DNA of 47,447 nucleotides from NCBI GenBank assembly GCA_032718475.1, contig JAUCBJ010006749.1, forward strand, positions 1 to 47,447, written 5' to 3'. The notes under the pieces are model-generated. The model worked only from the letters and a program-made list of their open reading frames with translations. It was not told the DNA's origin and did no database searches. Shown one piece after another: positions 1 to 47,447 of this stretch. The stretch comes from Nemertoderma westbladi. Lineage: Eukaryota; Animalia; Xenacoelomorpha. Positions within the stretch are counted from its first letter, which is position 1; the number at the start of each line of letters is the position of its first letter. The translations under genes and the position numbers were made by a program.

Positions 1-637
1 CGGCAATCCGTTCAGACCTAATAACAGCCAGACAACTATCCAGCCTACAAATTATCTAAATAAAATTATACGCTACCCGTACAGACTTACACAAACAAAG
101 TACAGACTAAACGATGGCAGACCACTCTCAAGCCTAAATAAACCACAGGACATGCAGACTCCGAAATGATTAGGGAGTATGCGCTCTAACCCAGTAGTGC
201 GACTTATTCTTTAGTTGGGGGATTACCTTACCGCATTGGCTGCCCCTACTTCCTAACCGTACTTAATCGGACAAGTGCTCTACACACACTGTAATCCGTT
301 CAGACTTAACAGCAATCAGACAACAGCTCAGCCTACAAATTGTCTGTACAATCTGATCAGGTTTACACGCCTTCTGTTCAATACTGGCCTACAAACAAAT
401 AAAACTTGACAGAAATAAGTAAAATCTCAATAAAAACCAGGGCTGCAGTCCCTGATTAATTATTAAGGCCTACTGGTATATAATAATCAAAATCGAATAA
501 TACTAGTGTACTTATACTGAAGTACCGGTTAGAACAGTTAGGCCTACTGACCTACAGAGTGTACCGGTTCAGGTTTACCGGTTGACCGGTACTTTCAACT
601 TTATTGCTTACTGCAACAAAGAAGCTATATCCTTTAA
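1..637 (-). mobile_element. 5' internal (leader) region of the LTR element whose 5' LTR is 638-1867; runs out of the window
   Basis: Directly follows the LTR end on the minus strand. Its TTGCAGTAAGCAATAAAGTTG resembles TTGCAGTAGGCAATAAGGTTG downstream of the LTR at 46061-47282. Contains a ~50-bp imperfect direct repeat (6-57 vs 293-346). Confidence 0.65.
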
Positions 638-1867
638 TGTTCTCGCTTTCAGACCTTTGGCAGTTTAACCCACCAAATCAAGATGTCTTCTAGATATTAA
701 ATCTGCTTTTAGTCTATGACAAATATTTGATTCACTACACTAGTCGAAACCAATCCGTGCGCGACCATTCACCCGCTGGATATTCCCGGGAGATTGGGTT
801 CGACGGTTTAATTTTATTGCTATGTAAGCCTAATGTATTATTCGACTGACAGTATTATATAATCTCTGACAATATTATTCACCTTCGGTAATATTAACAG
901 TTCCTTTAGGACGTGGCGCTTTATCTATATAAACAGAGTTATGACTTAAACTACTCACAACGATATGGCTTAATTATAATTCACATATATGGCGCATTCT
1001 TTAGGAATTGCTTCTTTAACAGACTCACTCATACACAATGCTGCACAATACTGCACACTAATCTGCCAATCTTCACTGATTTTAGTCACATATAAAAGGA
1101 ACACAGGCTGACTCATGTAGGGTCTATCAAATAACATTAGATTCACTTCAAACCACTTTAACATAAGTCACAATCGTTATTGGTAACCTTTCTCTCTTAC
1201 CTTCGGTATATCAAGAATATTGGGTTGCGGGGTTATTTATCGTTATTCCAAATATAATAATTCATCAACCATATTATGAAGAACTGACAGTAAATAGCAG
1301 TATAAACAACAACTGAACAGTTAGGTATATCGGTACATCAGTACCGGTATGTCAGCATTGAGATATTTACAGAGATATTCAAGTAGTCCGTTAAAGGATA
1401 TATGCCCTTTATAATTAAACCTACTAGTGTAAGACTAAAAGCAGTACAGCACAAAATACTTCCAAGCCGTTCTTTCTTTGGCTCAAGTCTGAATGTAAAC
1501 ACTGCACATAGGCATTGCGTCATTTCTCGGAAATTTTCTGTACAAGGAGCCACAAAAACGCTCTCATTGGCTGACTGAACTGAGAGACGCCGTAGAACAA
1601 AGGAAATCAACACGTATGAATGTCAGCTGTTAACCGTAGTCATAGTAACTACTGTTCAAGAGTAGCTATCACCCCTTTGCGTCACGAATTGCCATAGAAT
1701 CATAAAATATGCCTTTCACAGTACACATACGGAGGAAATAGGTCTTAGATCCTCTAAAAACACCGATACAGCAATAATACGGTCTCTTACACTTATTAAA
1801 TCAACTACAGAGTATTTTAATGTAAAAGATAATAAAATAACGGGGCAATTCAGCAAAGGCTTTTACA
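638..1867 (-). mobile_element. LTR copy A (5' LTR, 1230 bp) of the TGTAAAAG...AACA family, inserted into the gag of the BEL element
   Basis: Minus strand starts TGTAAAAGCCTTTG and ends GAAAGCGAGAACA. Has CCAATGAGAGCG and CAGCTG motifs and the 30-nt block GCGCCACGTCCTAAAGGAACTGTTAATATT (890-919) shared with copies B, C and D. No TSD; abuts the BEL reading frame at 1868. Confidence 0.85.
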
Positions 1868-4800
1868 CCCGAAGAAAAAACAAGTGTACACAATGTTACT
1901 CAGAGTAAGGTGAGTAACATCAAACCGAAATGTGCGCTATGTGATGGGACCCATCGCTTAAATATGTGTGATGAATTTCTAAAGAAATCATTAACTGAGA
2001 GACGTGAAGTCATGTGGGATAAGCGGTTGTGTTATAATTGCCTCAGACATGGACACCAACGGCGAACCTGTTACTCTGACACAAGATGTGCCAAGTGCGG
2101 TGCGAAACATCATATCTTGTTGCACACTGAATTCGAGCGAAATAGTCCGAGTCAGGTAAGTGATTCCGAACTACATGTCCAATTCAGTGATGTGAACGAC
2201 ACTGATCAATCTGAGATGGAAGGATTCTATACGGACGAGTTCTCCGACGAAAACGAATCCTGTTACACGATAAATACCACAGTGTATCGAGCACTCACGT
2301 ATGAAAGAGATACGGACAGCGACCTTACCCTAACTACTTCTGATCAACAACCATTTTGGAAAGCGCCAACTTCCAATGTAGGGATTAGAGAATTTCCTGT
2401 GGTACAGGTAAGGGTCCACGGACCAAAAAGGAGTTATGTAGTGAACGCCCTCCTTGACTCCGGTAGTACAGGAACATTCATCGACAAAGAGCTAGCCGAA
2501 GACATATTCGATGGACAACCCAAGTTCCGAACTAAGCTAAACATGTCAGGAATTATGCAAGTTTGGAAATCCACAGTAACAGCGGATTATTATGTAGGTG
2601 TGTTGTCCACCCCCCAGGACGAACTAGGAGAACGTAGCATAAGGTCAGTGAAAATGGTGGCTATAAAGAATTTCACTACTACTCAAGCAGACCTTTATAA
2701 TTGGGACGAGGATGAGAGCATCCAACATCTTAAGATACCTCGATTCCAGACAGATTATCCTGGAGTGCAAATACTCATCGGTCAAAATGCGCATGAAGCG
2801 CTCGAGACATTGGAGAAACGACCTGCTCAACCGCAACCTCTACAAGTTTATGCGGGAAGAACTAGAGTAGGTTGGTACTTTACTGGCCCTTCCCGTAGAA
2901 CTCTCATGGAAAGATTACCGAAAGATCAGGTATATCAAGCGCGAGAATGGGAAGTTGAGAACAGTGAGTTCGACGATCCAACTGAGGGAACTCCATACTC
3001 CTCAGACAACGACGATATACATCAACTTTTTGATGAGGAGAATGCCATCGATCTCCTTAAGGAAAGCGAGACTTGGCAAAATCAAGTGAACTTATGTCAA
3101 CTTCTTCTCCCATCCGAGCGAGACGACTATAACGACGAGCTTAATGACGTCATTGAACGTTATAATGCCAAGACTCGGGATGAACACGCCGTAAGATTCT
3201 TTACTCAAGAGGTTGTAGAGCCCAACTCCTACGATAAGGCCCTATCGGTGGAGGAAGAAAGAGCCAAGCAGATCCAAGCGACAACTACTCGTTTTCTTAA
3301 AGATCAAGGTAGGTATGAGATCGGACTTCCTTTCCGAAAGCGAGAACCGAAGTTCATTAACAACAGACCTTTGGCGGAGAAAAGAATTGCGCAACTACAT
3401 CGACGCCTTACGGCAAATTCTTCAGCTAAAGAAATGTATCAAACACAGTTGAAGAAGTTTATTAGCAAGGGATATGCGGAGCTAGTACCAGAAGAAACAC
3501 CCATAACTGAGAGAACGTATTATTTAACTCACCATTACGTTCCCAAACCCGGTAAACCCCATGAAGTACGAGTGGTGTTCGACGGCTCCGCCCTCTATAT
3601 GGGCCAATCCCTTAATTCTGAAATGTTACCCGGACCCAACTTACTCCAATCCTTGTTGGGAATATTATTAAGGTTAAGACAATACTCCATTGCTTTCGCC
3701 TCAGATATAGAAGGCATGTTCTTACAAGTCAAAGCGCTGGATAGGGATCGAGATAGTCTACGATTTTTGTGGTGGCCTGAAGGAGACCTCAATAAGAAAC
3801 CTGTGGAGTACTGGATGACCATCCAAGCTTTTGGGATAATCTCGAGCCCTTCAAACGCCTGTTCCGTGGTGCGCACCACTGCGGATGACAACCGAGACGC
3901 CTTCTCTAAAGAAGTGATTGACAATATCAAACGAGACATCTACATGGACGATAATCTGAAGTCCCTTCCATCAGTCGAAGAAGCCATTGAGGTCGCTAAA
4001 GGAACGGTAGAATGCTTAAAAAAGGGTGGATTTCGATTAACTAAATTCACTAGCAACTCCCGTGAGTTTCTGGAGTCGATCCCGGTAGAAGATCGGGGAG
4101 CAAAAGACCTAGATCTAATAAAAGATGATCTCCCAGAAACTAAGACCCTTGGTTTGAAATGGGACACAGAAAGAGATATCCTGTTTTTCCAATTAAAACA
4201 GCGAGATAATCCAGTTCGGACTAAACGGATTTGTTTAAGTATCCTGAGCACTTATTTCGATCCATTGGGATTTATTAGCCCAGTTATATTGATTGCTCGG
4301 AGTTTAGTACAACAAATGTGGCTTGAAAACCACTCATGGGACGATCCACTTAAGGGAGAATTATTAAAGAAGTGGATGAAATGGGAAGATTCTCTACCAG
4401 CCATCGAAAACTTCATAATTTCCCGTTCATATTTTGGTCATGTTCTCCCTACGTATTCATATCAACTCCATGTGTTTGGAGACGCCAGCGATATGGGAAT
4501 CGGTATAGTAGCCTACCTAAGGGTGGAAACTCCGGACGGAATTAAAGTCGCCTTGGTTACCTCTAAGGCATTAATAAACAACAAGTTGAAAGTTCCTCGA
4601 GCGGAGTTAAAAGCGGCTCTATACGCTACAGCCATCGGCCGGAATGTAACAGAACAGATCGACTATCCCCTGGAGAAAACTGTCTACTGGACCGACGCTT
4701 TACTCGTGTTGGAGTATATAACCAATGAAGTCTGTCAGTTCAGCGTCTTCGTTACCAACAGAGTAGCTATTATACTCAGTCGCACGACGATGGATCAATG

Positions 4801-6826
4801 GAGACATTGCCCCGGAACGATTAATCCAGCAGACATCGCTTCCAGGGGAGCAACTCCACAAGAACTGGTAGATACTCCAGACTGGTTAGGTGGACCCGAC
4901 TTCCTCTACCAAGAAGAAGAAGAATGGCCTCCTCATCTTACTACAGCAGAAATTAGACAGGCCAAGGGAGCGGAGAAAGTCAAACCTAAAACTCAGGCGA
5001 GTAAATCGAAGTTATTCAAACCCACAGTAGATCTGTCTGTACTACATACTTCCGGAGACGACGCTTTGGATCAGAAACCCACAGCCACAAATAAACCCAT
5101 TGTGGAAATCCGTGATAAGGATTGGAAATCTGGCATACCAGACGTCTCGCAAGGACTCTCACCTCTTCTGCAGAGAGCGATACATCACTACAGTTCCTGG
5201 AATCGGCTTTGTAAGGCCGTTACATATTTAAAGAGATGTTTTCACCATCACTACTCTGGGATGAAAACAAAGGGTGATACCGCTCCAATCACATCAGTGC
5301 AGGTCCATGTTATTAAAGACATCCCTAAATATAAGGTACCCGACAAGTTTCTGAAGGAGAAGATCAGTTATCAGGAGCATGAAGAAACCAACAAACAGAT
5401 GCTGAGACTCTTACAATGCTATGAAGATTCCGATAAGTATTTCCTGTTGTTGAGAAATCCACAGATGCGCTTAAGGGATCGTTTCTCTAGCACAATGATA
5501 GATGGGTTGATACGTGTTGGAGGAAGGTTAACGAATGCCCCATTATCCTTTGATACTAAGTTCCCCATACTCATTAGAAATCTTGAAATACAAGTCAAGA
5601 TGATTGTAGATGTTCACAGCAAACTTTATCATGCTGGTAGAGAACGAGTTCTTAGCGAAATTCGAACTCGCTATTATTTTTATAAACCCCGTAGAGCTCT
5701 GAACCAAGTTCTTAGGAACTGTATACCCTGTAGGAAAGCATTCAGTAGGCCTTTAACACAGAGAGAGGCAGAATTACCTAGGGAACGAGTAAGCTTTTAT
5801 GAACCACCCTTTACTAATACCGGTGTGGATTTATTTGGCCCTATTGAAGTATATCGTGCTAGGACTATAGTCAAGATATGGTGTGTAATCTTTGTTTGTA
5901 TGACTTGTAGAGCCATCCATCTCGATATGGTGAACGATTTATCTACCAACAGCTTTCTATTAAGCTTACGACGACAGATCGCTCGCTTTGGCACTAGTAA
6001 CACGATGAGATCTGATAAGGGAACAAACTTCATTGGTGCCAACAATGAAATCAAAGCTTACTTCAAAGATTGGAACCAAAGACAGGTGGACGACCAACTA
6101 CGAGTAACAGCGTCTAGTTGGACCTTCAACGCCGCCGACGCCCCTTGGTGGGGAGGAAGTTGGGAGAGATTAATAAGAAGCGTGAAGACAGCATTTCATT
6201 TTATAGTGCCTTGCCGCGCTTATCTCACCGACGAACTTTTGCGGACGTTAATGGAAGAAATCGCCGCCTATCTCAACGAGAGACCGCTTATGCCAGTCTC
6301 ATCGAGTCCCGATTCCCTGGAAGCGCTAACACCCGCGCACTTCCTACTGAAGAAACCTGTAGCCATGCTCCCACAATCGGAAATCACAGACGGAGACGAA
6401 TACTGCCGACAAACTTGGCAACTCATGCAGTTGTTATCCCGTCGTTTCGCCGACCATTTCGAAAAACATTATCTGCCCACGCTACAACTTCGAACTAAGT
6501 GGTTTGCGCAGCAAGAAAACGTCAGCGCTGGAGACATGGTGCTTATTGTGGATGTGGATCTTCCACGTAAGCGGTGGCAGACAGGTCGTATAATCGAGAC
6601 GCACGTCTCAGATGACGGTTTGGTGCGATCGGTAGAACTCGTCGTCATGCGACGTAACTTCAAGAAACCGGGAATTGTCTTCGAGACGCAGCAGCTCAAT
6701 CGCCCGGTGGGACGTTTATGTTTACTGGAAAGAGACAGAGAACTCTCCGGAAACTATGGGAGACAAGATACTCTTCCCACGACCACCTCCCTAATCCAAC
6801 AAACATCTAGGGACTCCCCAACTTAA
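1868..6826 (+). CDS. BEL/Pao LTR retrotransposon polyprotein (Gag zinc knuckles, protease, RT, RNase H, integrase), 5'-truncated by LTR A
   Basis: Three Cys/His knuckles (CALCDGTHRLNMC, CYNCLRHGHQRRTC, CAKCGAKHHILLH), protease LLDSGS, RT SDIEGMFLQV...LRFLWW...YMDDNLKS, RNase H LHVFGDAS...PRAELKAA...YWTD...NPADIASRG, and integrase H-H-C-C, GVDLFGP, SDKGTNF, WERLIRSVK with the BEL-type C-terminus (GDMVL...DGLVRSV...RPVGRLCLL). The frame is open from 1868; the GTG at 1910 is not a real start. Confidence 0.96.
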   Translation, partial: PEEKTSVHNVTQSKVSNIKPKCALCDGTHRLNMCDEFLKKSLTERREVMWDKRLCYNCLRHGHQRRTCYSDTRCAKCGAKHHILLHTEFERNSPSQVSDSELHVQFSDVNDTDQSEMEGFYTDEFSDENESCYTINTTVYRALTYERDTDSDLTLTTSDQQPFWKAPTSNVGIREFPVVQVRVHGPKRSYVVNALLDSGSTGTFIDKELAEDIFDGQPKFRTKLNMSGIMQVWKSTVTADYYVGVLSTPQDELGERSIRSVKMVAIKNFTTTQADLYNWDEDESIQHLKIPRFQTDYPGVQILIGQNAHEALETLEKRPAQPQPLQVYAGRTRVGWYFTGPSRRTLMERLPKDQVYQAREWEVENSEFDDPTEGTPYSSDNDDIHQLFDEENAIDLLKESETWQNQVNLCQLLLPSERDDYNDELNDVIERYNAKTRDEHAVRFFTQEVVEPNSYDKALSVEEERAKQIQATTTRFLKDQGRYEIGLPFRKREPKFINNRPLAEKRIAQLHRRLTANSSAKEMYQTQLKKFISKGYAELVPEETPITERTYYLTHHYVPKPGKPHEVRVVFDGSALYMGQSLNSEMLPGPNLLQSLLGILLRLRQYSIAFASDIEGMFLQVKALDRDRDSLRFLWWPEGDLNKKPVEYWMTIQAFGIISSPSNACSVVRTTADDNRDAFSKEVIDNIKRDIYMDDNLKSLPSVEEAIEVAKGTVECLKKGGFRLTKFTSNSREFLESIPVEDRGAKDLDLIKDDLPETKTLGLKWDTERDILFFQLKQRDNPVRTKRICLSILSTYFDPLGFISPVILIARSLVQQMWLENHSWDDPLKGELLKKWMKWEDSLPAIENFIISRSYFGHVLPTYSYQLHVFGDASDMGIGIVAYLRVETPDGIKVALVTSKALINNKLKVPRAELKAALYATAIGRNVTEQIDYPLEKTVYWTDALLVLEYITNEVCQFSVFVTNRVAIILSRTTMDQWRHCPGTINPADIASRGATPQELVDTPDWLGGPDFLYQEEEEWPPHLTTAEIRQAKGAEKVKPKTQASKSKLFKPTVDLSVLHTSGDDALDQKPTATNKPIVEIRDKDWKSGIPDVSQGLSPLLQRAIHHYSSWNRLCKAVTYLKRCFHHHYSGMKTKGDTAPITSVQVHVIKDIPKYKVPDKFLKEKISYQEHEETNKQMLRLLQCYEDSDKYFLLLRNPQMRLRDRFSSTMIDGLIRVGGRLTNAPLSFDTKFPILIRNLEIQVKMIVDVHSKLYHAGRERVLSEIRTRYYFYKPRRALNQVLRNCIPCRKAFSRPLTQREAELPRERVSFYEPPFTNTGVDLFGPIEVYRARTIVKIWCVIFVCMTCRAIHLDMVNDLSTNSFLLSLRRQIARFGTSNTMRSDKGTNFIGANNEIKAYFKDWNQRQVDDQLRVTASSWTFNAADAPWWGGSWERLIRSVKTAFHFIVPCRAYLTDELLRTLMEEIAAYLNERPLMPVSSSPDSLEALTPAHFLLKKPVAMLPQSEITDGDEYCRQTWQLMQLLSRRFADHFEKHYLPTLQLRTKWFAQQENVSAGDMVLIVDVDLPRKRWQTGRIIETHVSDDGLVRSVELVVMRRNFKKPGIVFETQQLNRPVGRLCLLERDRELSGNYGRQDTLPTTTSLIQQTSRDSPT

Positions 6827-7683: not shown

Positions 7684-8469
7684 GGAATAAATTTAAGTTC
7701 ATATATTTCAATGAATTTAATAAATTGTCATTTTATACAATTTATAACATTCCCAAAATTCCATTAATTAATAGATCATGGGAGCGGAGATTCACTCTAT
7801 TAAGTGTATTTGTGTGCGAGAATCTCCAATGTATAGTCAATAGCCGATAAAATTCATAGAATCATGTATAAAGGGGATATTGACCATTAAAGAATTACTA
7901 TTAAATAGCATCCCAGATCTGTATGCATGAGAATTACCCTAATTCTACCGCTAGCTTTCCATAATGTCACCATGGCAACAACCACGCTAGAATTAGAAGT
8001 GAGTTAAAAGAACAATAGAAAGCATGCCCCATTGAATAGCATAGGGAATAAATAGCGCACTGCTAGTATCCAAGGATACATAATAAATACAGTGACATTC
8101 TGGAAGGTACTGACTAACGGACAAATGGCCCGAATGTGTACAGTTTGTTGCAGTTGTGTTGAATTTGTGCGTTTGTAGGTGAATGTTACTACTAAGGTGT
8201 GTTTACAGTAGCGAGTCGCAATTGTGAAAGTAACCCTAACTCTCCAAGAAGAACCTGCAGTACATCTAAGCCTTTGGGACGGACAGTGAAGTGACTTGTG
8301 CCGGTTATCGTTGTCGTTGTGTAGCTACATCGTTGGCGAAAGCACAGCGACGACGGTACATCGGCGCTGAGGATCTTACACTGTCCGGGGGCAAAAGAGG
8401 GATAGGCAGCGACGCCCGCTAGCCTAATATATATAGACTCATTATAATATTGATAAACTCATAGCAGAT

Positions 8470-11400
8470 ATGACTGAGTTGATAGAAGATGATCTTGGCA
8501 TCAGGGAGCGATATACTCTACCTTTACAAGCGTTTGTCGATAGCTTGATACGCGGCGACGCTGGTCCAACTACTACGGAGGATGATGGTCGTTATATCGA
8601 ACCGCCGATGTCCCCGGAGCAACTTACGCGTGAATTGGACTATAGAAAGTTCACCGCTCGCTATACGCATCGTAATGGTACGTATATGGACTTCTTAACT
8701 ACCGGCCACCCTATCGATTTACACGATACGGACGATGTGGATACCGAAAGGGAAATGGTTTTATTTAAATATCATACCCAACGGAATCGGAACGATAAGC
8801 CAAGAATAGAACACGAGAACTCTATTCGAAACCGACTCGAAAGAGAAGACGTTGCAGAACCGGATAAACGCAACGACTTCAACGATTATCTGGAATTCTT
8901 GAGAGAAACATACCTCAATATTGCCAGTCAACAAAATCTCGAAACTCGATATCCTCAAGGTATACATCATGATCCTATGATAGAACTCAAACGACTCTAT
9001 TTCACTATGATGTATCTTACCGCCGATCGACCGCTACCTGTTGTCCCAGATAGCTTCGAACAGATGGAGGAATATTGTAAAACTGGAGAACGATCACCCG
9101 CGTTTCCTCTGCAAGACATGCGTCTTTGGTATTACTGTGACGAATGCCCTAGACCCAATCAGCAAACGGAAAGACATAAACATCCGCAGAGACGTTGCGC
9201 TAAACACAGTTTTACACGATATACTTACGGGAGTTTCGAGCAAAACCTGTTCGACGTGTCCCCGGCGGTCGCTCGACTCAAGCGATCCTTGAACAAACCG
9301 ATGATCAGAGTTCCGGAATACTCGGTCAGACCTCCGCATTCCTCAGTTAGACCTCAAACTCTTGACCCTAATAGTATCACGGATCCTCCCGAACTGTACT
9401 CACTGTTCAAAGATCTAGTGTTACCCGAACAGTTGATCGGTGGCACTCCGGTAGTAGGCTCACGAGACATTCGCCAACCCTACCTAGCTGGATTGGGACG
9501 TGGTCATCTAATATCGCCGTTTAACCCATACAACCGTCCCGGCTTCACCTCTATCCAACCCGTTACGGAAGTCGAAGAGAGCGTCGTACGAAACGCATTA
9601 GACGCTATTCGGCAGAAAATCGGAAAGGGAACGTACGATTGTTTGGAGAAGCGTAAATTGCAGCAACAAGTCCAAGCGGTGAAGGAATTAGCTTTACCCC
9701 AGTTCGATAGAGAAATACAAAATCTCGAGGAGGACATCGAACGTGGACGAACCTACTCTTTACAAGAGTTTCTAGATGAGCGTCTACAACAACAACCGGA
9801 GGAGAATCAGCTCGAGGAGAGACATATAGAACTGGATGAGAGAGAAGAAGCGGCTTTAGCTCAACCCGAAGCGCAAATCCTTATGACGGATCTCTACTCT
9901 AAAACCATTCTTCATCCCTCGATGGTTCCCCATTTCGGAGACAAACTTTTTGCGACGGCACAACCCCAACCGGTTGATATCAACCTAAGATCTCGCGATC
10001 TTATCGCAGACGCTCCTCTGTTGCAGCGTCCGCCCATCGAACCCGCTCGTGTCGATGGTATACTCGTTGAACCTCCGGACAATAGAGCAGATCTTGTCTG
10101 TCGCATGGTACACGATGTAAACATACGCGCTAGACCTTTACCGGACTCGTTTTATGGGATCAAAGATCACCCTTATTACGTCAATCTAAAACAATATTAC
10201 ATGGTAAAACCGGAAGATCCTACACATAGTCTGAAGTTTCTACCGTTAATAAATCCTCTCGATCTTGTCGAACTCGAACAACTGCAGAAACATCTGGATC
10301 AGTTAGTTAAAGTAAACTCGTTTCGAAAACCATATAATGTTTCCAGAATAGAGAAAGAAACAATACCTCCGTATAATCTTGATGGATTCATCAAAACTCG
10401 TTTAGTGCACTGGAATCTTGATGTGTTATTCGAGGAGGAAAGAATACAACGATATGGAGATGTGGAAACATATACCACACAATATTTAAAGTATAAAGAC
10501 CTGCCTAATGCTAGCGAATGTGCTACCTTGTGGCATCCTGTGGGAATGACACTCGAAAACGCCACTAAAGAGTGGAACGAAACTCTTAACGTTATCGAGA
10601 TGTATGGAGTTGTCACTTACGATAACGAAGGTAGCGTTCCGGTTGGAGAACTTGGAACTACGCGGATGATACATATACGAGGACTCGCTGGTTCTACCCA
10701 CGTATTTACTCGAGCGTGTTCCGACGTTATTGATTATTCTTTTGAAACTCTTACTGAGACACAAAAGAAACTCCGACATGGACAATTTGAACTCGCGCAG
10801 CGTTACGTCACCGACACCGAGCGCAAGCCGGCCATGGGTATCGATGGATCGATGTTACCCCAACCCGTGCTCGAGATGCTGTTTAACGAAGGAATCCTTA
10901 AAATCGGCTCAGCTGTTTATGGAGACCTACAGAACGACTTTCGGAATATGGAGAACATTCCATACCCCTTCGTTGATACTCAGCTGATTGCTCCTTGGGC
11001 AGAAGGCCGAGGTTTCTTCCGCACTATGTATGCCAATACACCCAGCGGAATTACCAAAGTACAACGAACCTCCATCGGACATCTTGCCTTTCAAGAATAC
11101 GGATGGAATTTCAAGGTTGGAAATCCTATAAATTACCAACAAGTATACGGAGATCACTATTCTCGTTTATACTTTGATGGACCATTGACCGCACCTGGCG
11201 CCGTGTATAGCTTTATGAGTGTTCCACTTCGTCCCTCCTTAGCTATATACACGATCTTTGAAAACGCAGCACTTGCCGGTTGGCTAGCCGATGTGTGCAG
11301 TCGTACTATACGCGCCCATCCCTTAATACTTGGAACCAAACTCGCCAAGTTAGATGAACACAATAAATTCATCCGCTTTGAATGTTTCAGGCGCTTTCTG

Positions 11401-12723
11401 ACTCCGTTCCGTAACGTTGATAGTCAGTTCAAGGACCGCGCTCTGACCAAACTCAGCCTGAGAGACTCAGCGGCGGAGAAGCTAAACAGCGCGGGATTTG
11501 CCCTTTTTCAGGACGTTTGTATACAGAACTTGCACTCATCTGTTATACAAAGACCCCGAATACCCACGGGTTATTCTGTCGTCGAAGTTCAGACAGTGGG
11601 TCCGCTTGCGGAGACAGCCGCACCTACCTCAGCTATGCAATTGGAAGACGAACCAATATGCTTAGAAGCTGAAGCGATTCAGCCTACAGCGCCCCGGAGC
11701 AGCGATAACGACTACGTCTTAGAGTGGTATCAAGGTCCACAATGTCTCACCGCATACGATTATCGACACGCTAACTATGTTTCTCGAAAACGTTGTCGAT
11801 TATGCGCATCGAGAGACCATTTCACTCCTATGGACTCAGACGTACCCTGTTCCTATTTCCACGAACAACCAATGATGGAGATATATTGTGCGTATTGCAG
11901 ACTTAATAACTCTCATATTTTTGCAGTCTGCCCCCAATTTATGACTCAATGCCACCACTGTCAACTTAAAGGACATGCCAGTTATAATTGCCCCTTTAAT
12001 CACGATATAGAGAGCGTAGATGAAATGATTACCCTGCGCTACATCCGAGCTTGGGAAGCTAACGCGGATTTACACTGTGAGTCCCGTCATCGATACTACC
12101 CTGGACGCTCTTACGAGGGAGTTTACGCGTTCCATCCTTATTTATTAGCGTCTGTGGAACAAAAAACACGCATACCGAGTTACGAGCTAATGAAGCGTGT
12201 TGGTGAGTGTATTTCCACTAAATTTGTTAGAAGATACCTTAGGAACGTCAATCCTAACGATATTACTTCATACCATTTGATCAATTATATCCGTCAAGAC
12301 CCTGAGTATGGCGATTTATTTATCAACTCGCACCCTGAGTTACAGGAAGTATCTCGACGGCCCTACGAATATCGAGCCCGAGAACGCGAGCTGGAAAGAA
12401 CTATTAAACCAAGGAAGTTTCTCACCACCCCCGGTCCGCCTACCGCCATTACCCAGACAACCCGTCAAGGACCCGTAGGAGCTGCTGTCCTGAGGCGCGC
12501 CCTAAAGGCTGTTAGACCTCGCTCCACGGAAGTTGATATCGATCAACCAGGTACCTCGACCGGCGGATACACCGATCGCAATCCGAAACCTTCTGATGCA
12601 ATTGTATTGCACCCTTCACCCAGGAGTTACAGCCCTCCTAGTAAAGTGGCTCGCCCCAAAGAGAAAAGGACTCTTGCTAGCCTCAAAAAACTGCGTAAAC
12701 GCCGTCCGCGTAAGAAAGACTAA
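8470..12723 (+). CDS. 1417-aa retroelement accessory protein: DEDDy (WRN/RNase D-like) 3'-5' exonuclease domain, CCHC zinc knuckles, basic tail
   Basis: Intact ATG-initiated ORF. ExoI-like VVTYDNEG (D at 10621), ExoII-like LPQPVLEMLFNEGILKIGSAVYGD (D at 10924), FVDTQLIA, SIGHLAFQEYGWNFK, and ExoIII-like PLRPSLAIYTIFE. Knuckles CRLCASRDH, CAYCRLNNSHIFAVC and CHHCQLKGHASYNC at 11794-11991. C-terminal KKLRKRRPRKKD. Domain call is by motif recognition only. Confidence 0.8.
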   Translation: MTELIEDDLGIRERYTLPLQAFVDSLIRGDAGPTTTEDDGRYIEPPMSPEQLTRELDYRKFTARYTHRNGTYMDFLTTGHPIDLHDTDDVDTEREMVLFKYHTQRNRNDKPRIEHENSIRNRLEREDVAEPDKRNDFNDYLEFLRETYLNIASQQNLETRYPQGIHHDPMIELKRLYFTMMYLTADRPLPVVPDSFEQMEEYCKTGERSPAFPLQDMRLWYYCDECPRPNQQTERHKHPQRRCAKHSFTRYTYGSFEQNLFDVSPAVARLKRSLNKPMIRVPEYSVRPPHSSVRPQTLDPNSITDPPELYSLFKDLVLPEQLIGGTPVVGSRDIRQPYLAGLGRGHLISPFNPYNRPGFTSIQPVTEVEESVVRNALDAIRQKIGKGTYDCLEKRKLQQQVQAVKELALPQFDREIQNLEEDIERGRTYSLQEFLDERLQQQPEENQLEERHIELDEREEAALAQPEAQILMTDLYSKTILHPSMVPHFGDKLFATAQPQPVDINLRSRDLIADAPLLQRPPIEPARVDGILVEPPDNRADLVCRMVHDVNIRARPLPDSFYGIKDHPYYVNLKQYYMVKPEDPTHSLKFLPLINPLDLVELEQLQKHLDQLVKVNSFRKPYNVSRIEKETIPPYNLDGFIKTRLVHWNLDVLFEEERIQRYGDVETYTTQYLKYKDLPNASECATLWHPVGMTLENATKEWNETLNVIEMYGVVTYDNEGSVPVGELGTTRMIHIRGLAGSTHVFTRACSDVIDYSFETLTETQKKLRHGQFELAQRYVTDTERKPAMGIDGSMLPQPVLEMLFNEGILKIGSAVYGDLQNDFRNMENIPYPFVDTQLIAPWAEGRGFFRTMYANTPSGITKVQRTSIGHLAFQEYGWNFKVGNPINYQQVYGDHYSRLYFDGPLTAPGAVYSFMSVPLRPSLAIYTIFENAALAGWLADVCSRTIRAHPLILGTKLAKLDEHNKFIRFECFRRFLTPFRNVDSQFKDRALTKLSLRDSAAEKLNSAGFALFQDVCIQNLHSSVIQRPRIPTGYSVVEVQTVGPLAETAAPTSAMQLEDEPICLEAEAIQPTAPRSSDNDYVLEWYQGPQCLTAYDYRHANYVSRKRCRLCASRDHFTPMDSDVPCSYFHEQPMMEIYCAYCRLNNSHIFAVCPQFMTQCHHCQLKGHASYNCPFNHDIESVDEMITLRYIRAWEANADLHCESRHRYYPGRSYEGVYAFHPYLLASVEQKTRIPSYELMKRVGECISTKFVRRYLRNVNPNDITSYHLINYIRQDPEYGDLFINSHPELQEVSRRPYEYRARERELERTIKPRKFLTTPGPPTAITQTTRQGPVGAAVLRRALKAVRPRSTEVDIDQPGTSTGGYTDRNPKPSDAIVLHPSPRSYSPPSKVARPKEKRTLASLKKLRKRRPRKKD

Positions 12724-12801: not shown

Positions 12802-13946
12802 TGTAAAAGCTTTTGCGTAATTAACCGGTTATTTTCCCTTAAAGTACGCTGTAGTTGGTTTGCCAGGCATAAAAAGGCCGTGTCCTTGCTGTACTGGTGT
12901 TTTAGAGGACATAAAAGTCATTTCTTCTGTATTTGTACTTTAGAGGACATAATCCGCAATCTCGTGACGCGATAAGCTAGATACTCTTGAAAACAGTGTC
13001 GCTACCATGACGACGGCTAACAGCTGATATTGCCACGTCGACATTTCTTTGTTTCTTTGTTCTCTCGTTGTTCGGTTGACCAATCAGAGCGTTTTTTGAC
13101 TCTGTGTTGGATTTGGATACAGAAACTCAGTAGTTCAGTGTTATGTTTTGCCCAGAGCCTAAGAACACCGGCTTTTGGCACCTCCGTATATCAGCATTAT
13201 TTAGCTTTACATTAGTAGGCTTAATTATAGAACGTATATCTGTTATCAAACCATAACTAAACATATCATACATATCTTACTTAACATTACTGCTTTTACT
13301 GTCGGTTATTCATTATATTTGTTGATGAAATATTATATCGGAACACTGATCAATAGTCAGACACCCCACCTTCTTGATATACTAAAGGTTAGAGAGACCG
13401 GTTACAGATAAACGATTGCGACCTATGTTAAGTGGTTTGAAGTGAATCTAATGCTATTTCATATGCCCGACATAAATTGTATGTTGCTCTCTTTATACGT
13501 GACCAAATTTAGTGAAGGTCGGCAGATTAGTGTGCAGTATTGTGCAGCATTGTGTATGATTGTAACTGATAACAAAGCATCTCCTAAAGAATGCGCCATA
13601 TACGTGAATCTATAGCCTTTTCGTTGTGTCTGGTTTAAGTCATAACTCTGTTTACATATTTAGAGCGCCACGTCCTAAAGGAACTGTTAATATTTCCCGA
13701 AAGTGAATAATATTTGTCAGAGATTATATATTACGATCAGTCGAATAATACAGTAGGCTTACACCATTAATCATTAAGCTCCGAACTCAGTCTCCCGGGT
13801 ATATCCAGCGGGTGAATGATTGCGCATAGACTGGCTTCGGCTAATGTAGTGTATCAAATACTCGTCATAAGCTAAAGAATATATATCATCCAAAAGACAT
13901 CCTAATTTAGCAGGTTAAACTGTCAAAGGTCTTAAAAGCGCAAACA
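12802..13946 (+). mobile_element. LTR copy B (3' LTR, 1145 bp), preceded by PPT-like TGGGAGCGG
   Basis: TGTAAAAGCTTTTG...AAAAGCGCAAACA, with CCAATCAGAGCG and the invariant 30-mer at 13665-13694. Starts 78 bp after the 1417-aa ORF stop. Flanks AGCGG/GTAAT are not a TSD, so it is not a solo LTR. Confidence 0.85.
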
Positions 13947-21977: not shown

Positions 21978-22883
21978 CACCATGACCCGTAATATAGTGT
22001 CATTTTCTGATGACACGGACCCCCCCCAAAAAAATTTTTCTACAAATCTTTATCATATTGCTTGAAATTGGAAACACAACTAGTCCCACTCACCGTGGTT
22101 GTTACCATGAAGCCGGAATTTTCGATTTCGCCTTTAAATTTTATTTGTAAGCGTTTTAAAAAAGTATGTTTTGCGAAATCGCACCCTCTGTATCATTGCC
22201 ATTCTTCACTTTAGTCGTAATTTTTTCACATCAATAGAAAGCTTGCGTTGCAAGGATTCCAAATATGTAACAATGTCTGAATTTCATTGAGAAACAGCTG
22301 AGAAATAGGCATTCAAAGATTGCAAGAATTATTGTTCACTACAAGCCATTTATTATATTAAATAAATACACAAAATTCTAGAACGTGTTATTTATTTTAT
22401 GAGTTGGTAGGCAACAGCGGTATGCCTATACAATATCTATATTGCCTAGCTAATCATACATAAAAAAAAATTGTTCCAGAATATTGTGTATTTATTAAAT
22501 AGAATAAATGGCTTGCAGCGAACAATAATTCTTGCAATCTTTAAACGCCTATTTCTCAGCTGTTTCTCAATGAAATTCAGATATTGCTACATATTTGGAA
22601 TCCTTTCAACGCAAGCTTTCTATTGATATGAAAAAATTACGACTAAAGTGAAGAATGGCCACGATACGGAGGGTGCGATTTCGAAAAAGACACTTTTTTA
22701 AAACGCATATGAATAAAATTTAAAAGGCGAAATCGAAAATTCCGGCTTCATGGTAACAACCACGGTGAGTGGAACTAGTTGTGTTTCAAATTTCAAGCAA
22801 TATGATAAAGATTTGTAGAAAAATTTGGGGGGGGGGGGGGGTCCGTATCATGAGAAAATGACACTATATTACGGGTCATGGTG
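21978..22883. mobile_element. Palindromic non-autonomous DNA transposon (TA target; Tc1/mariner-like)
   Basis: TA|CACCATGACCCGTAATATAGTGTCATTTTC...GAAAATGACACTATATTACGGGTCATGGTG|TA. ~410-bp inverted arms and an ~85-bp spacer. A related terminus lies at ~21565-21592. Confidence 0.85.
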
Positions 22884-40820: not shown

Positions 40821-41030
40821 GTATATATTACATATATATAAAAAATGCTGTGCCGGCTTGTCGACAAAATTTGCGCCGCCACAACTCCCTATCACCCATA
40901 ACATTTGCTAGATCATCCGCATCTTCAAGGCCGGTGTACTTTAAGATGCGTCTCAAGAAAGCCATGGGCTGTCCACCATGCATATACTCCATGAGGCCCC
41001 CAAAGCACAAGATTATGCACTGGCCGGTCC

Positions 41031-42492: not shown

Positions 42493-43250
42493 GCTGGTCC
42501 TCAAGTCGAAAGCAATGACCTGCAAAGCGGAGGCGGCTTTGTTCTAGTGTCAATCTTGTGGGAACCAATAAGACACCTCCAATTTCTGGTTGGAGATGTG
42601 TGCATTGTACTTGACACAGTGAACCCGGCGTAGCATTCTAGTGAATGTCCATCCATAGATTTGGTGTTCAAGGTTGCCCATGCCATTCCCTTACGTATTC
42701 GAATGGTCCTCATCTGACTTCCGGATCCATGATCCCAGGTGTTGCGGTAACCGGCTAAATCTAGAGACAAATGCGTGGCCGGTTAGGGTTGAGTTTGGTT
42801 TGTTTTCACTGGTTGCGTAAGGGACGGATGATACAACTCAGGGTCTTGGGAAAACTAGTTCTTTGTTATTCCTTCCATGTATAATAGAAATGTCATAGGT
42901 AATAAACAGTGACCAGTAATAGCACAAGTCTGAATCTGATATCTGTACTGAGATACTAACCTTCCATCATATATAATACGTCTTACATATAAGCCGTCTC
43001 TCAGGTTTGAGGGACGCATGTGACTGAAGTATAAATTGGTATTACAACAGTACAAGCTACTATAGTTTGATAAGGGTTTGGCTTATTGCTGCCCTGACCA
43101 ATGAAATGTCGGAGCTACCAGTTAATATTGGCTAATGCCATAATGATTAATCACTTACTTTCCTGATTAATCCTTCTCTCACTATGTGTTGGCAACGGCT
43201 TGTGGTTAGTAAGCCGATGCCTATAGTAAGTTGTTATATACGACCTGCCT

Positions 43251-44455
43251 TGTAAAAGCTTTTGTGGGATAACTGATTCGTTTGCCTTGCTGGCCAGTTC
43301 CCCCCCGGTCGCTAGAATACTCTAAAAGGGATCTATAGCTAAAATAGTGCAAGCTACCAGCTTATTGGTTGATGTGCTGTACGAAGGTATCTGGGCTCCG
43401 TTTACTCGGCCAACCAGCTTAGGGAGGTTGCCTCAGCCTTGCTGTCCGTATCGGCCAATAGAATTTGAGTGGGCGTTGATTTTGACCTATCCCAGAGCTA
43501 CTGAACTGAATTTCCTATCTCTATGCTCATCCTCTGTGTTGGACGGGAGCTTCGGGGAATAAGGGTAGTTGGTATCCTCGTATAGTCAGGTAGTCATATG
43601 ATTCTTCATATGATTCTGTTGTTGTGTTCCCATTTTCGCCAGACCACCGGCTTTTGGGAAGAACTCTAGTAAAACTGCTTAAATTATCGAAAGTATAACT
43701 GTTATCTAATCAGCTAATCAACCAACCAACTAGTCTCACTCACTTAATTTAACTGCACTAATCATATTGTTTGTACTGTTATTTACCGTCAGTTATTAAT
43801 TGTATCTATTTGTTGATGAATTATTGCCCTTTGGAGAATACGGATAAATCACCCAAAATTCCCAATTTTCTTGATACACTACAGGTTAGAGAGACAGGCT
43901 ATACATAACAATTGCGATTTATATTAATGTGGTGTGTATTGAATCTAATGTTATTTAACAGACCCTACATGAGTCAATTGCTGCTCTCTTTATGTGTGAT
44001 CAAATTTACTGACGGTCGGCAGAATAGTGTGCATGATTGTGATTGGTAACAAAGCATTTCCTAAAGAATGCGCCTTATACTTTAATCATAAGCAGTATCG
44101 TTGCGTTTAGTATAAGTCCTAGCTCTGTTTAAATAGATAGAGCGCCACGTCCTAAAGGAACTGTTAATATTTCCCGAAAGCCAATAATATCTGTCAGAAA
44201 TTAATTATTAACGATCTATCGAATAATACAGTAGTTTTACACTGCAACCTTACACTGCAATAATACAATTTAAGCATCCGAATTCAGCCTCCCGGGTGTA
44301 GATCCATCGGGTGAATGATCGCGCATGGGCTGGCTTCGGCTAATGTTTTGTTTATTAGCATAAAATATTGTCGTATGCTAAAGGTGTTTTAATTAACTAA
44401 AAGACATATAAATTTTGGCAGGTTAAACTGCTAAAGGTCTTCAAAAGCGCGAACA
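43251..44455 (+). mobile_element. LTR copy C: solo LTR (1205 bp) defining the family boundaries
   Basis: TGCCT|TGTAAAAGCTTTTG...AAAAGCGCGAACA|TGCCT: exact 5-bp TSD and TG...CA termini. Invariant 30-mer at 44142-44171. Confidence 0.92.
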
Positions 44456-44820
44456 TGCCTGGTTCGTATTTCTTTCTAGGGTTAAGGCAACTTTGAGTGC
44501 TTTGGGTACTCCCACAGTGAAGGTGGCAAAATCACTGATGGGTAACGCGAGGTGTGTAAATTTAATTTTACTATCACATTACCACGCAATTGTATTACAT
44601 CCTTCACACTTCGCACGATTTTATGATTTGTTGTTTCATTGCCTCTTTTATTGGTACTCTCACACTAATACTTCTCTATTATACCGTTTTTCTATTTTTC
44701 TATATCTCTAGTATACCGAAAATACCAGTGCTAGTTTACAGTCTTCCAATAGTTAATAATACATCTACATCTACATCACGATAGTATACTGCTGTACTGC
44801 AGCAGTACCGCTAGGCCAAC

Positions 44821-45429
44821 ATGGCTGAATCTGGCAGCTTTACTGCAATCCAGAACAACATTATGTCTATTATTAGAACAATCCGCCAAAAGAAAAGCAC
44901 ATCAAACGATGACGAGAAACAGTCATTATGCTGTTAGGTTCATTGTACACAGTCTCATTAGGCGATCTGGCCGAAATGAGGAAGGATGTTGCCAATGCTC
45001 GCAAGGAAAGAGCCCTGCTTCCTCGAGCTCGCTCGGGGAAGTAGGGTGGATGGCCCTCTCCGCGCTGCAGCGCCAGTGGAACCCGCAAATGGTGGACAAG
45101 CCCACGTTCACATCGGACGCTTACACAATGAAACAACGAAGGAAGATATTGCCGGTTTCCTCAGGGGCGAAAATATTGCTTTTGAGGATGACACCGAGCT
45201 ACCACTGAAGGATGGAACCTCGATGTTCAAGAGCTTTCATATCATATGTAACCAGAAAAACCGCGAGGAAGTCATGAACCCGACGTTGTGGATTACCGGA
45301 AACCCTATCCGCAACTATCGACTCAGTGAACAAGACCGACAGGAGTTGCGTCTTCAACAACGCGAGAGTTCCGTTAACACGGATGGAGGAAATACACAGA
45401 GGAATACAGAGATTAGCAACAGGGACTAG
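44821..45429 (+). pseudogene. Non-LTR retrotransposon ORF1 (CR1/L2/Jockey-type RRM-like C-terminus), frameshifted
   Basis: VHIGRLHNETTKEDI..FL...FKSFHI...MNPTLW..G..IRNY, directly upstream of an APE ORF. Confidence 0.7.
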
Positions 45430-45439
45430 GATCGGAGCA

Positions 45440-45969
45440 CAAAGGTATGAGTTCGATTATGGAATGTGGAGGGACTTCAATATTTAGCAGACACTCTGAC
45501 CGACTCTGAACTTTATGGCAACGCAGATGTAGTGCTCCTGACTGAAACTCTATACACTGATGTCTCACATTACACCACCAATTACTACTGCTTCTCGGAG
45601 ACAGCTGTCAAACCAACTAGGGGACGTCCATCGGGGGGGGGTCTTATGGTTTTATGCAAACCGCATTTAAATCATTCCAGCATCAAGCAGGCTGCTACAT
45701 ACATCATTATCAAAACATTAATCGCATATTTTATCATTCTCTATTTACCGCCTGACACCCCTCTGGAGGAAATTATTCTAACAATATATGACACCCTCTC
45801 TCGCACAGACCCCAGCCTGTCAATTATTATCTCAGGGGATTTTAACTGCCAGTTGGACTCCGGCACTCGCGGTACAGAGCTATCCGACGAACTGTACAAT
45901 GTCGGTTTCCTTTGTTTAAACAATCCGGATGTACTATTGACCTTATTTTTATTAAATACCCAGGCATAG
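45440..45969 (+). pseudogene. Non-LTR ORF2 apurinic-like endonuclease, truncated
   Basis: WNVEGL...DVVLLTET...GRPSGGGL...LYLPP...IISGDFN. Confidence 0.9.
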
Positions 45970-46060
45970 TCCCACAGATACTTCCCGAAGCAACTGTTGT
46001 AAATAATCCAGTACGAAATCACCAGGCTGTCTCTGCAGTTTTAGAACTCTCTAATATACA

Positions 46061-47282
46061 TGTAAAAGCTTTTGTGGGATAACTGATACGTTTGCCTTTG
46101 CTGGCCAGTTCCCCCCCAGGCGCTGGAATACTCTAAAAAAGGTTTTCTAACTGTATATATATTCCCCTCGCCCGCAAGGTACCTTTACAGGGGTTTTAAC
46201 GGACATAAAAGTAATTCTGCTATATACGTGTTTTAGCGGACATGGTAAGACAAAAAACTTGTAATGCACCAACCACCTTTCACAGCTTAGCCGTGATGAT
46301 TCATATTACGACATCTAGCAGCTGGTTGCTGACATGGAAACAGCCATTGGCCGCGTGGTTCTTTGTTTGGCTTGGGCCAATCAGGGCGGTTTTTCCTGTC
46401 GACGTGTAGCTTTTTAGTCGATCATAAGGAGAGTGTTCAGTCTTACTGTTTTTTCTTGATACTTTGTTGTTATTGCTGTCTAAGCCAGAAACACCGGCAT
46501 TTTTGGATAGATACTGCTGTACCGTAAACTGCTTGAATTATCGAAAGTATAAACTGTTACCGAATCGAATATCACCTAACTCATTAATCATATTGTTTGT
46601 ACTGTTATTTTACCGTCAGTTATTAATTGTAAATATTTGTTGATGGAAATATCGCTATTTGGATAATACGGATAAATCACCCAATTCCCAATTTTCTTGA
46701 TAACACTACAGGTTAGAGAGACCGGCTATACATAACAATTGCGATTTATATTAATGTGGTGTGTATTGAATCCAATGTTATTTAGCAGACCCTACGTGAG
46801 TCAATTACTGCTCTCTTTATGTGTGATCAAATGTACTGACTGTCGGCAGAATAGTGTGTATGATTGTGATTGGTAACAAAGTATTTCCTAAAGAATACGT
46901 TTTATACTTTAATCATAAGCAGTATCGTTGCGTTTAGTATAAGTCTTAGTTCTGTTTAAATAGATAAAGCGCCACGTCCTAAAGGAACTGTTAATATTTC
47001 CCGAAAGCCAATAATATCTGTCAGAGATTAATTATTAACGATCTATCGAATAATACATTAGGTATACACTGCAACCTTACACTGTAATAATACAATTCAA
47101 GCATCCGAATTCAGTCTCCCGGGTGTAGATCCATCGGGTGAATGATCGCGCATGGGCTGACTTCGGCTAATGTTTTGCGTATTAGCATAAATTATTGTCG
47201 TATGCTAAAGTGGTTTTAATTAACGAAAAGACATATAAATTTTGGCAGGTTAAACTGCTAAAGGTCTTCGAAAGCGCGAACA
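46061..47282 (+). mobile_element. LTR copy D (5' LTR, 1222 bp)
   Basis: TGTAAAAGCTTTTG...GAAAGCGCGAACA; closest to copy C; invariant 30-mer at 46969-46998. No TSD; followed by a leader similar to that after copy A. Confidence 0.9.
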
Positions 47283-47447
47283 GTAACAGTTTATCTTGTA
47301 TTGCAGTGTAAGTATTAAATACAGTTTAATACTGTTCTGTCGAACAGTAACAGTTTATAAATCTTATTGCAGTAGGCAATAAGGTTGCAAGTGTAGGCAT
47401 TAAATACAGTTTAATACTGTTCTGACGAACAGTAACAGTTTAAAATC
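47283..47447 (+). mobile_element. Start of the internal leader after LTR D, with repeated U5-end/primer-site units
   Basis: CGAACAGTAACAGTTTA at 47277, 47341 and 47426; TAAATACAGTTTAATACTGTTCTG twice. Confidence 0.75.

What the first reader, a model, noticed from the sequence alone, without database searches (positions are those of the whole stretch)
46549..47294. Candidate self-priming LTR retrotransposon: the primer site is complementary to a 12-mer inside its own LTR (copy D)
Seen: LTR D ends ...GCGCGAACA at 47282 (end fixed by the TSD of solo copy C) and is followed by GTAACAGTTTAT, not by a TGG-initiated tRNA PBS. Its exact reverse complement, ATAAACTGTTAC, lies at 46549-46560 in the same LTR; the pairing extends by AAG/CTT across one bulged base. 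The 3' end of this 12-mer would sit flush against the terminal CA, which is the geometry of a minus-strand primer. Established: fission-yeast Tf1 self-primes with the first 11 nt of its transcript after cleavage. Inference: this animal family primes reverse transcription from its own RNA, which needs a cut leaving a 3'-OH at about 46560. The looped-out region here is ~720 nt. I know of no description of this configuration but cannot check the literature.
Basis: partly seen in the sequence, partly recalled or inferred. Interest (0 to 1): 0.92.

Follow-up and report, generated by a model that had tools for sequence, protein, structure and literature searches.

The report
Self-priming BEL/Pao retrotransposon family
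Two copies of an animal LTR retrotransposon, likely of the BEL/Pao kind, lack the usual tRNA landing site and carry there 12 letters that match a site inside their own terminal repeat, with different letters in each copy, so the family likely starts copying itself with a piece cut from its own RNA.

Summary
Observation confirmed. LTR D ends at 47282 (fixed by solo copy C's 5-bp TSD); the next 12 nt are the exact reverse complement of 46549-46560. Chance is unlikely: 0 of 5000 shuffles. Copy A has a different leader 12-mer (7 of 12 letters differ) that again matches its own LTR, in the same alignment columns and flush with the terminal CA. The LTR family is tied, by inference through copy B, to a BEL/Pao Gag-Pol. 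In distant BEL relatives (~40% Pol identity), 7 of 10 loci with an independently fixed LTR end show 10-15 nt of such pairing, 2 have a TGG-type tRNA site, 1 is unresolved; swapped leaders never reach 10 (0 of 130). In most relatives the primer is complete only across a GT..AG intron in the LTR; here it is contiguous. Best reading: Tf1-like self-priming in a BEL/Pao clade (0.78). Not shown: transcription start, the cut, any RNA. Whole-RNA folding favours the helix only when the RNA starts close to it. Nine paper searches found no BEL/Pao self-priming. This scan noted the same idea, including the splice-built primer, in other genomes.

The parts
46061..47282 (+). LTR copy D, 1222 nt, TG...CA; 5' LTR of an element that runs off the window
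   Evidence: end fixed by copy C
46549..46560 (+). predicted self-primer site of D (LTR 489-500); its 3' base pairs with the first base after the LTR
47283..47294 (+). primer-binding site of D, exact reverse complement of 46549-46560, no TGG
46545..46548 (+). AAG plus one bulged T; AAG pairs with CTT at 47295-47297
   Evidence: LTR-side bulge, then 3 Watson-Crick pairs
47277..47447 (+). tandem units of LTR end plus leader start (begin 47277, 47341, 47426), giving further primer-binding-site copies at 47347-47358 and 47432-47443; the second pairs over 13 nt
   Evidence: joints that skip the repeat exist in other copies
46377..46441 (+). CCAAT box (46377) and initiator-like TCAGT (46436): candidate promoter upstream of the primer site; CCAAT lies 166-183 nt upstream of the primer 3' end in A, B and D
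   Evidence: motif positions; function inferred, untested
638..1867 (-). LTR copy A, 1230 nt, 5' LTR of a related element inserted in reverse into the gag region of ORF1
1391..1402 (-). predicted self-primer site of A (LTR 466-477), same alignment columns as D's
626..637 (-). primer-binding site of A, TTAAAGGATATA, exact reverse complement of A's site; 7 of 12 letters differ from D's
12802..13946 (+). LTR copy B, read as a 3' LTR: purine-rich tract on its left (12792-12801), no TSD, right flank not complementary (longest run 5); homologous primer site at 13235-13246
43251..44455 (+). solo LTR copy C with 5-bp TSD TGCCT; homologous primer site at 43694-43705; flank not complementary (longest run 4)
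1841..6826 (+). ORF1, BEL/Pao Gag(end)-Pol, open for 1661 codons stop to stop (the first nine lie in LTR A): zinc knuckles, protease, RT, RNase H, integrase
   Evidence: Pfam Peptidase_A17 4.5e-36, DUF5641, Integrase_H2C2; motif order; homologues
8437..12723 (+). ORF2, 1428 codons, ends 78 nt before LTR B; no family or homologue found; Cys/His-rich C-terminal part

Best explanation
These repeats are LTRs of a likely BEL/Pao retrotransposon family that likely primes reverse transcription with its own RNA instead of a tRNA. Shown: the 12 nt after the 5' LTR match a 12-mer inside the same LTR, flush with the terminal CA, in two diverged copies with different letters. Inferred: the RNA starts upstream of the 12-mer (probably about 110-125 nt upstream of its 3' end), folds back across about 720-750 nt, and is cut at the 3' end of the 12-mer, by analogy with Tf1 by the element's RNase H. 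The 5' piece would then prime minus-strand DNA through the rest of the LTR up to the cut; the primer site and everything upstream would be inherited from the RNA's 3' LTR. Copying the primer during plus-strand synthesis would rewrite the binding site from the primer and keep the two matched. In many relatives the same primer would be finished by splicing an LTR intron; this family holds it in one piece.
For: Exact flush 12-mers in D and A, 0 and 1 of 5000 shuffles; same alignment columns; 7 of 12 letters differ and all stay paired; A's leader does not match D's LTR or the reverse (best 2 and 3 mismatches, at other places). Copies B and C, which are not 5' LTRs, show only 5 and 4. No TGG in either leader. 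Relatives with an LTR end fixed by 5'/3' LTR divergence: 7 of 10 score 10-15 nt (6 families, as L060/L061 are near-identical), 6 of the 7 only across a GT..AG intron; swapped leader/LTR pairs reach at most 9 (0 of 130 at 10 or more); shuffled leaders reach 10 in 3 of 1620 trials. Second set of 51 loci: L082, L084, L089 score 11, L119 14. L005 equals L006's LTR with the intron precisely absent and its primer contiguous. The window's Pol sits in a 31-row clade (SH-aLRT 96) that holds all 20 loci labelled self-type; 6 of 8 tRNA-type loci lie outside it. RT and RNase H acidic motifs are present in ORF1.
Against: No RNA evidence: start, cut and primer are untested. Folding predictions are lukewarm: A forms all 12 pairs only if the RNA starts 0-12 nt upstream of the site (mean pair probability 0.85) and loses them at 30 nt or more; D forms them in 1 of 6 tested boundaries, forcing them costs about 7 kcal/mol and the 911-nt fold is no better than shuffles (z -0.1). 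TATAAA hexamers lie 11 nt upstream of A's site and across D's; if these are the TATA box, the RNA starts downstream of the 12-mer. No canonical poly(A) signal is conserved across the four LTRs, so R and U5 are undefined. Only two 5' LTR-leader junctions of this family are in hand. The link from LTRs A and D to the BEL Pol runs through copy B, ORF2 and a 1.6-kb gap and is inferred. The window's Pol is on a long branch (0.94), and two tRNA-type loci (L018, L026) lie in the same clade. The loop (722-753 nt) is far longer than in relatives (44-360 nt). The one-base bulge plus 2 or more further pairs recurs in only 4 of 20 relatives.
Confidence: 0.78

Rival explanations
1. The pairing partner is the copy of the 12-mer near the 3' end of the RNA (from the 3' LTR), not the 5' copy: either the RNA's own 3' end primes, or the pairing circularises the RNA for strand transfer.
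For: TATAAA hexamers at or just before the site in A and D could put the start downstream of it; no conserved poly(A) signal is found in these LTRs; G/T-rich sequence follows the site.
Against: In 18 of 20 relatives an AATAAA/ATTAAA lies downstream of the primer's 3' end (1-255 nt), so the site is not the RNA's natural end there; a CCAAT box sits 166-183 nt upstream in A, B and D.
Confidence: 0.09
2. The helix is real but structural or regulatory (packaging, dimerisation, translation, U5-leader stem), and priming uses some other RNA.
For: U5-leader pairings are known in LTR elements (recalled; PMC7175516 cites a U5-IR-like structure for Tf1); covariation shows pairing, not priming.
Against: The helix occupies exactly the primer-binding position, flush with the LTR end (offset 0 in A and D, 0-4 in relatives), its length is 10-15 nt, and loci with a TGG site lack it (scores 4-7 in L018, L026, L097, L103, L112, L118).
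Confidence: 0.07
3. A host tRNA half, tRNA fragment or other small RNA primes at these 12 nt; the LTR-internal copy is a relic of captured primer.
For: Half-tRNA priming without TGG exists in Copia lineages (PMC6317226, passages); the host tRNA set could not be scanned (no genome).
Against: The site differs at 7 of 12 letters between A and D and is different again in most relatives, each time matching its own LTR; a host primer would hold the site nearly constant, as seen in the four near-identical TGG sites of L097, L103, L112, L118.
Confidence: 0.04
4. Chance or a local inverted duplication in an AT-rich repeat.
For: The window is rich in inverted repeats (1.4% unfiltered background); one unrelated repeat pair in L097 scored 10.
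Against: Two copies, different letters, same columns, both flush; 7 of about 5570 CA positions outside the repeat clusters reach 12; relatives repeat the pattern.
Confidence: 0.02

Closest known systems
Tf1/Tf2 of Schizosaccharomyces pombe, Tj1, and the Tf1/sushi chromoviruses (Ty3/gypsy), self-primed
   Same: No tRNA site; the bases after the 5' LTR are complementary to an 11-12-nt stretch inside the LTR, with the primer's 3' end at the LTR boundary. Tf1: first 11 bases pair with the site and RNase H cuts between bases 11 and 12 (PMC7175516, passage; PMC4600332, passages).
   Different: Pol here is BEL/Pao (Peptidase_A17, DUF5641), no chromodomain hit. The primer is probably internal, not the first 11 nt; the loop is 722-753 nt; relatives complete the primer across an intron; D repeats the binding site three times.
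Belpaoviridae / Semotivirus (BEL/Pao LTR retrotransposons)
   Same: TG...CA LTRs of about 1.2 kb, single Gag-Pol frame in the order protease, RT, RNase H, integrase, purine tract before the 3' LTR, an extra 3' ORF (ICTV profile PMC8742986, whole text).
   Different: The ICTV profile gives an 18-nt site for host tRNA-Arg or tRNA-Gly; neither 5' LTR here has one. ORF2 has no detected likeness to env or any family.
Plant TAR (Houba, Osr-1) Copia and Tcn1 lineages, predicted self-priming
   Same: Self-priming inferred from LTR-to-site complementarity (PMC6317226, passages).
   Different: Other superfamilies and hosts; no intron-built primer in the passages seen.
Cer7 of Caenorhabditis elegans (BEL-type element said to encode its own tRNA-like primer; recalled, not from any call)
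   Same: A BEL element that supplies its own primer.
   Different: As recalled, a tRNA-like sequence elsewhere in the element serves a tRNA-type site; here ARAGORN finds no tRNA in the window and the partner is an LTR 12-mer.

Membership tests
Belpaoviridae (BEL/Pao) | BEL-type Pol, order PR-RT-RH-IN | tested here: met
   ORF1: Peptidase_A17, DUF5641, Integrase_H2C2; motif order; the 120 homologues listed of 372 all carry PF05380
Belpaoviridae (BEL/Pao) | LTRs A-D belong to the element that encodes this Pol | tested here: inconclusive
   B is a 3' LTR downstream of ORF1 and ORF2 on one strand, its purine tract resembles those of relatives; no 5' LTR of that element is in the window
Belpaoviridae (BEL/Pao) | LTRs 0.2-1.2 kb with TG...CA ends and a short TSD | tested here: met
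   1145-1230 nt, TG...CA, 5-bp TSD at C
Belpaoviridae (BEL/Pao) | 18-nt primer-binding site for host tRNA-Arg or tRNA-Gly | tested here: not met
   no TGG in 165 nt (D) and 130 nt (A) of leader; departs from the ICTV description
Belpaoviridae (BEL/Pao) | polypurine tract before the 3' LTR | tested here: met
   purine-rich 10 nt before B; by eye, no score
Tf1/sushi self-priming group | Ty3/gypsy chromovirus Pol | tested here: not met
   Pfam hits are BEL-type, no chromodomain
Tf1/sushi self-priming group | primer-binding site complementary to an LTR-internal 11-mer, flush with the LTR end | tested here: met
   12 nt in A and D
Tf1/sushi self-priming group | the complementary stretch is the very 5' end of the transcript | not testable with these tools
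   no raw RNA reads; contigs cannot show a start; promoter-like motifs conflict
Tf1/sushi self-priming group | RNase H cut at the primer's 3' end | not testable with these tools
   RNase H motifs present; activity untested
Tf1/sushi self-priming group | supporting U5 stem next to the primer helix | tested here: inconclusive
   A: 6-pair helix LTR 478-483 with 1213-1218 stacks on the primer helix; not seen among D's helices of 6 or more pairs
Half-tRNA or tRNA-fragment priming | site constant across families and complementary to a host tRNA part | tested here: inconclusive
   site is not constant; host tRNA set not available

The most novel reading that the evidence does not exclude
A whole clade of animal BEL/Pao retrotransposons, from this family to marine-invertebrate-associated relatives at 40% Pol identity, has replaced tRNA priming by a long self-primer cut from inside its own RNA. 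In most members host splicing of an LTR intron builds the primer, so only spliced RNA can be copied, while the intron survives through the unspliced 3' LTR. This family is an intron-free branch that pairs across a 720-nt conserved LTR segment and has multiplied its binding site in tandem.
Probability: 0.6. Interest if true: 0.85.

Novelty: new variant of a known kind. Interest (0 to 1): 0.74.

Why it matters
BEL/Pao replication is described as tRNA-primed and 'poorly understood' (PMC8742986). Self-priming here would be a further origin of tRNA-free priming, in a third LTR superfamily, and bears on whether hairpin or tRNA priming came first (PMC3601003, passages). It explains why LTR finders see no primer site in such elements and gives a simple detection rule. 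A splice-built primer in relatives would couple host splicing to reverse transcription, and self-primed elements would escape silencing by 3' tRNA fragments aimed at the primer site (inference). The family is very abundant in its host's DNA runs, so RNA-end mapping is feasible.

Tried and rejected
No whole genome is held, so genome-wide junction collection and a host tRNA scan were impossible. ARAGORN: no tRNA in the window. Rfam on 43200-47447: one chance-level hit outside the LTRs (E 0.83), so no known ribozyme or RNA family in C or D. Exact LTR motif searches found nothing in viral or metagenome contigs; Pol searches in viral contigs found nothing. No RNA holder listed; X6 is only guessed to be RNA and is another organism; no evidence on expression either way. 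Contigs of 4 runs laid on D: none of the 40 shown substitution rows falls in either 12-mer, but 119 rows were hidden and no piece links the two sites, so this is weak; per-site variant shares for the two sites remain unknown. ORF2: no Pfam hit, no homologues in two searches, Atlas lead under 0.9 only. RNAalifold on the four LTR 3' parts: 11 of 132 predicted pairs with a double change, four sequences only, not convincing. The first contiguous-only scan of relatives missed the pattern because the primer is split by an intron. In the wider scan 14 of 80 loci had no 5' region; 20 of the other 66 had a best score of 10 or more, 16 at plausible LTR ends and 4 (L014, L038, L050, L071) apparently chance. 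The 15-locus swap matrix uses ends picked by that score and is biased; 15 of its 210 off-diagonal cells reach 10, 14 of them among close kin. In the second set (51 loci) most had no usable LTR pair; L092, L131, L117, L121, L123, L081, L102 stayed unresolved. A conserved bulge-plus-three extension was considered and holds in only a minority of relatives.

Full report
Observation. The finding is in the sequence as written. LTR D spans 46061-47282; the 12 nt after it are the exact reverse complement of 46549-46560, 722 nt upstream of the LTR end. Solo copy C carries TGCCT on both sides, which fixes the end. After one bulged base three more pairs follow. A flush match of 12 was reached by 0 of 5000 dinucleotide shuffles of LTR D. 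In the window itself 65 of 5624 CA positions reach 12; 55 lie in two inverted-repeat clusters, 3 are the LTR sites, 7 are elsewhere. The leader of D is tandemly repeated together with the last six LTR bases, so the site occurs three times.

The family. Four related LTRs lie in the window: A (638-1867, minus), B (12802-13946), C and D. They are 54-66% identical upstream of the primer site and 71-90% downstream. A is a 5' LTR whose leader resembles D's beyond the 12-mer (86% over 29 nt). B has a purine tract on its left, no TSD, and follows two long frames on the same strand. ORF1 (1841-6826) is a BEL/Pao Gag-Pol (Peptidase_A17, DUF5641, Integrase_H2C2; protease, RT, RNase H, integrase motifs in order); A is inserted in reverse into its gag part. 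ORF2 (8437-12723) has no family or homologue. That ORF1, ORF2 and B form one element is inferred from order, strand and B's purine tract, which resembles those of relatives; it is not shown. Contigs of public DNA runs cover D at very high summed depth, so the family is abundant; the depth is no copy number.

Covariation in the window. A's leader starts TTAAAGGATATA, 7 of 12 letters different from D's, and its exact reverse complement lies at LTR 466-477, in the same alignment columns as D's site, again flush with the terminal CA (1 of 5000 shuffles). Crossed combinations fail. B and C, which are not followed by a leader, give runs of 5 and 4. Neither leader holds a TGG.

Relatives. An alignment of 24 of the 120 listed homologues plus the window's RT-RNase H region fetched 80 loci from metagenomes and 51 from genome bins that contain host DNA. 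For ten loci of the first set the 5' LTR end was fixed by where the two LTRs diverge. Seven score 10-15 nt of flush pairing (offset 0-3), two have TGG-type sites, one is unresolved. In six of the seven the pairing is complete only when the end of an upstream exon is counted with the start of a downstream one, across a GT..AG intron of 67-186 nt inside the LTR. Controls with the same scoring: swapped leaders and LTRs reach at most 9 (0 of 130 at 10), shuffled leaders reach 10 in 3 of 1620 trials. L005 matches L006's LTR with the intron precisely absent, and L072's 3' LTR holds a contiguous 11-mer where its 5' piece shows an acceptor. A wider scan added further loci, with the selection bias noted under Tried and rejected. 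In the second set L082, L084 and L089 scored 11 and L119 14; L097, L103, L112 and L118 have near-identical TGG sites and score 5-7; L106 and L116 look TGG-type by eye; one unrelated repeat pair scored 10; the rest gave no usable ends. On a 48-row tree (47 of 131 loci, chosen by label and spread; quick IQ-TREE, SH-aLRT only, midpoint root) the window's Pol lies on a long branch within a clade of support 96 that holds all 20 self-type loci, L119, seven unlabelled loci and two tRNA-type loci; six tRNA-type loci lie outside. No order of events is claimed.

Mechanism. Shown: position, complementarity, compensation, absence of a tRNA site. Inferred: the RNA starts upstream of the site, folds back, is cut at the site's 3' end and primes minus-strand DNA, as in Tf1, where the first 11 bases pair with the site and RNase H cuts after base 11 (PMC7175516, passage). 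The intron in relatives places the primer site inside the transcript there, and poly(A)-signal hexamers lie downstream of it in 18 of 20, so it falls in R. L072 has a TATA-like box about 130 nt upstream of the primer's 3' end (by eye), and A, B and D have a CCAAT box 166-183 nt upstream, which suggests a primer of roughly 100 nt rather than 11.

Against. No RNA data. Folding predictions give the helix in A only for starts within 12 nt of the site and in D for 1 of 6 boundaries; this conflicts with a long primer unless protein chaperones or co-transcriptional folding decide, and 800-900-nt predictions are unreliable. TATAAA hexamers at the site in A and D could mark a start downstream of it. 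The loop is two to sixteen times longer than in relatives. Only two junctions of this family were seen, and variant shares at the two sites across the host's copies remain unknown.

Literature. Nine searches of open-licence papers and preprints listed no paper on self-priming in BEL/Pao or on a splice-built primer. Read: PMC8742986, whole text (tRNA-Arg/Gly site); passages only of PMC3601003, PMC6317226, PMC4600332, PMC3118150 (no mention of primer or tRNA), PMC554778 (no mention of PBS or tRNA), PMC8220671, PMC7175516. No supplements were opened; those of PMC6317226 list primer types for plant elements. Subscription papers and Repbase entries are not searched and may hold the idea. The Cer7 comparison is recalled. 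The label 'Sinbad-like' for the clade was not tested and is not used.

Earlier scan notes. Looked up after my reading was formed: eight notes on other genomes report BEL/Pao self-priming, two of them the splice-built primer, one a primer at the poly(A) site, which I then checked. They are not counted as evidence. Nothing was noted on this genome.

Verdict. Real feature; works most likely like Tf1 self-priming; not a member of the Tf1/sushi group; a BEL/Pao element that fails that family's tRNA-site criterion. New variant of a known kind, confidence 0.78, interest 0.74.

Noticed in passing
window 8437-12723: ORF2, 1428 codons, between pol and the 3' LTR; no Pfam hit or homologue; three Cys/His clusters near the C-terminus, Atlas lead zf-CCHC at 0.85. 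A GC-richer, promoter-like stretch precedes it (about 8230-8440).
   Followed up: partly
window 46969-46996 and homologous places in A, B, C: 28 nt invariant in all four LTRs, in the most deeply covered part of the LTR; role unexplained; no Rfam match.
   Followed up: partly
window 46712 (LTR D 652; A 668, B 587, C 635): One splice-donor-like motif per LTR at homologous places, downstream of the primer site; an intron here would shorten the loop or make a subgenomic RNA. No joint supports it.
   Followed up: no
window 47364-47382 and leader A (about 595-613, minus): A short hairpin is conserved in both leaders just after the primer-binding site.
   Followed up: no
window 47277-47447: LTR end plus leader start repeated with periods 64 and 85; contigs that skip the repeat exist but at low depth.
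   Followed up: partly
window 43330-43640: Copy C has a different upstream part (no CCAAT motif match) between a 94%-identical first 78 nt and a 94%-identical 3' 700 nt relative to D: a likely recombinant LTR.
   Followed up: no
window 45451-45969: Endonuclease fragment of a non-LTR element (Exo_endo_phos) just upstream of where D is inserted.
   Followed up: no
window 22020-22863; 41028-42504; 24715-24994: A long inverted repeat (about 400-nt arms), a 15/17-nt tandem array in two orientations, and an inverted partner of the 40.8-41.4 kb repeat.
   Followed up: no
L081-L131: BEL/Pao elements, several with both LTRs, sit in prokaryotic genome bins: likely host DNA in the bins.
   Followed up: partly
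L119 4044-4748: LTR pair without TG...CA ends at the divergence points, yet with a 14-nt spliced self-match.
   Followed up: partly
L018, L026: TGG-type primer sites inside the otherwise self-type clade: reversion, recombination or tree error.
   Followed up: no
L051, L052: Head-to-tail copies of one BEL element with period 6138 in one contig.
   Followed up: no
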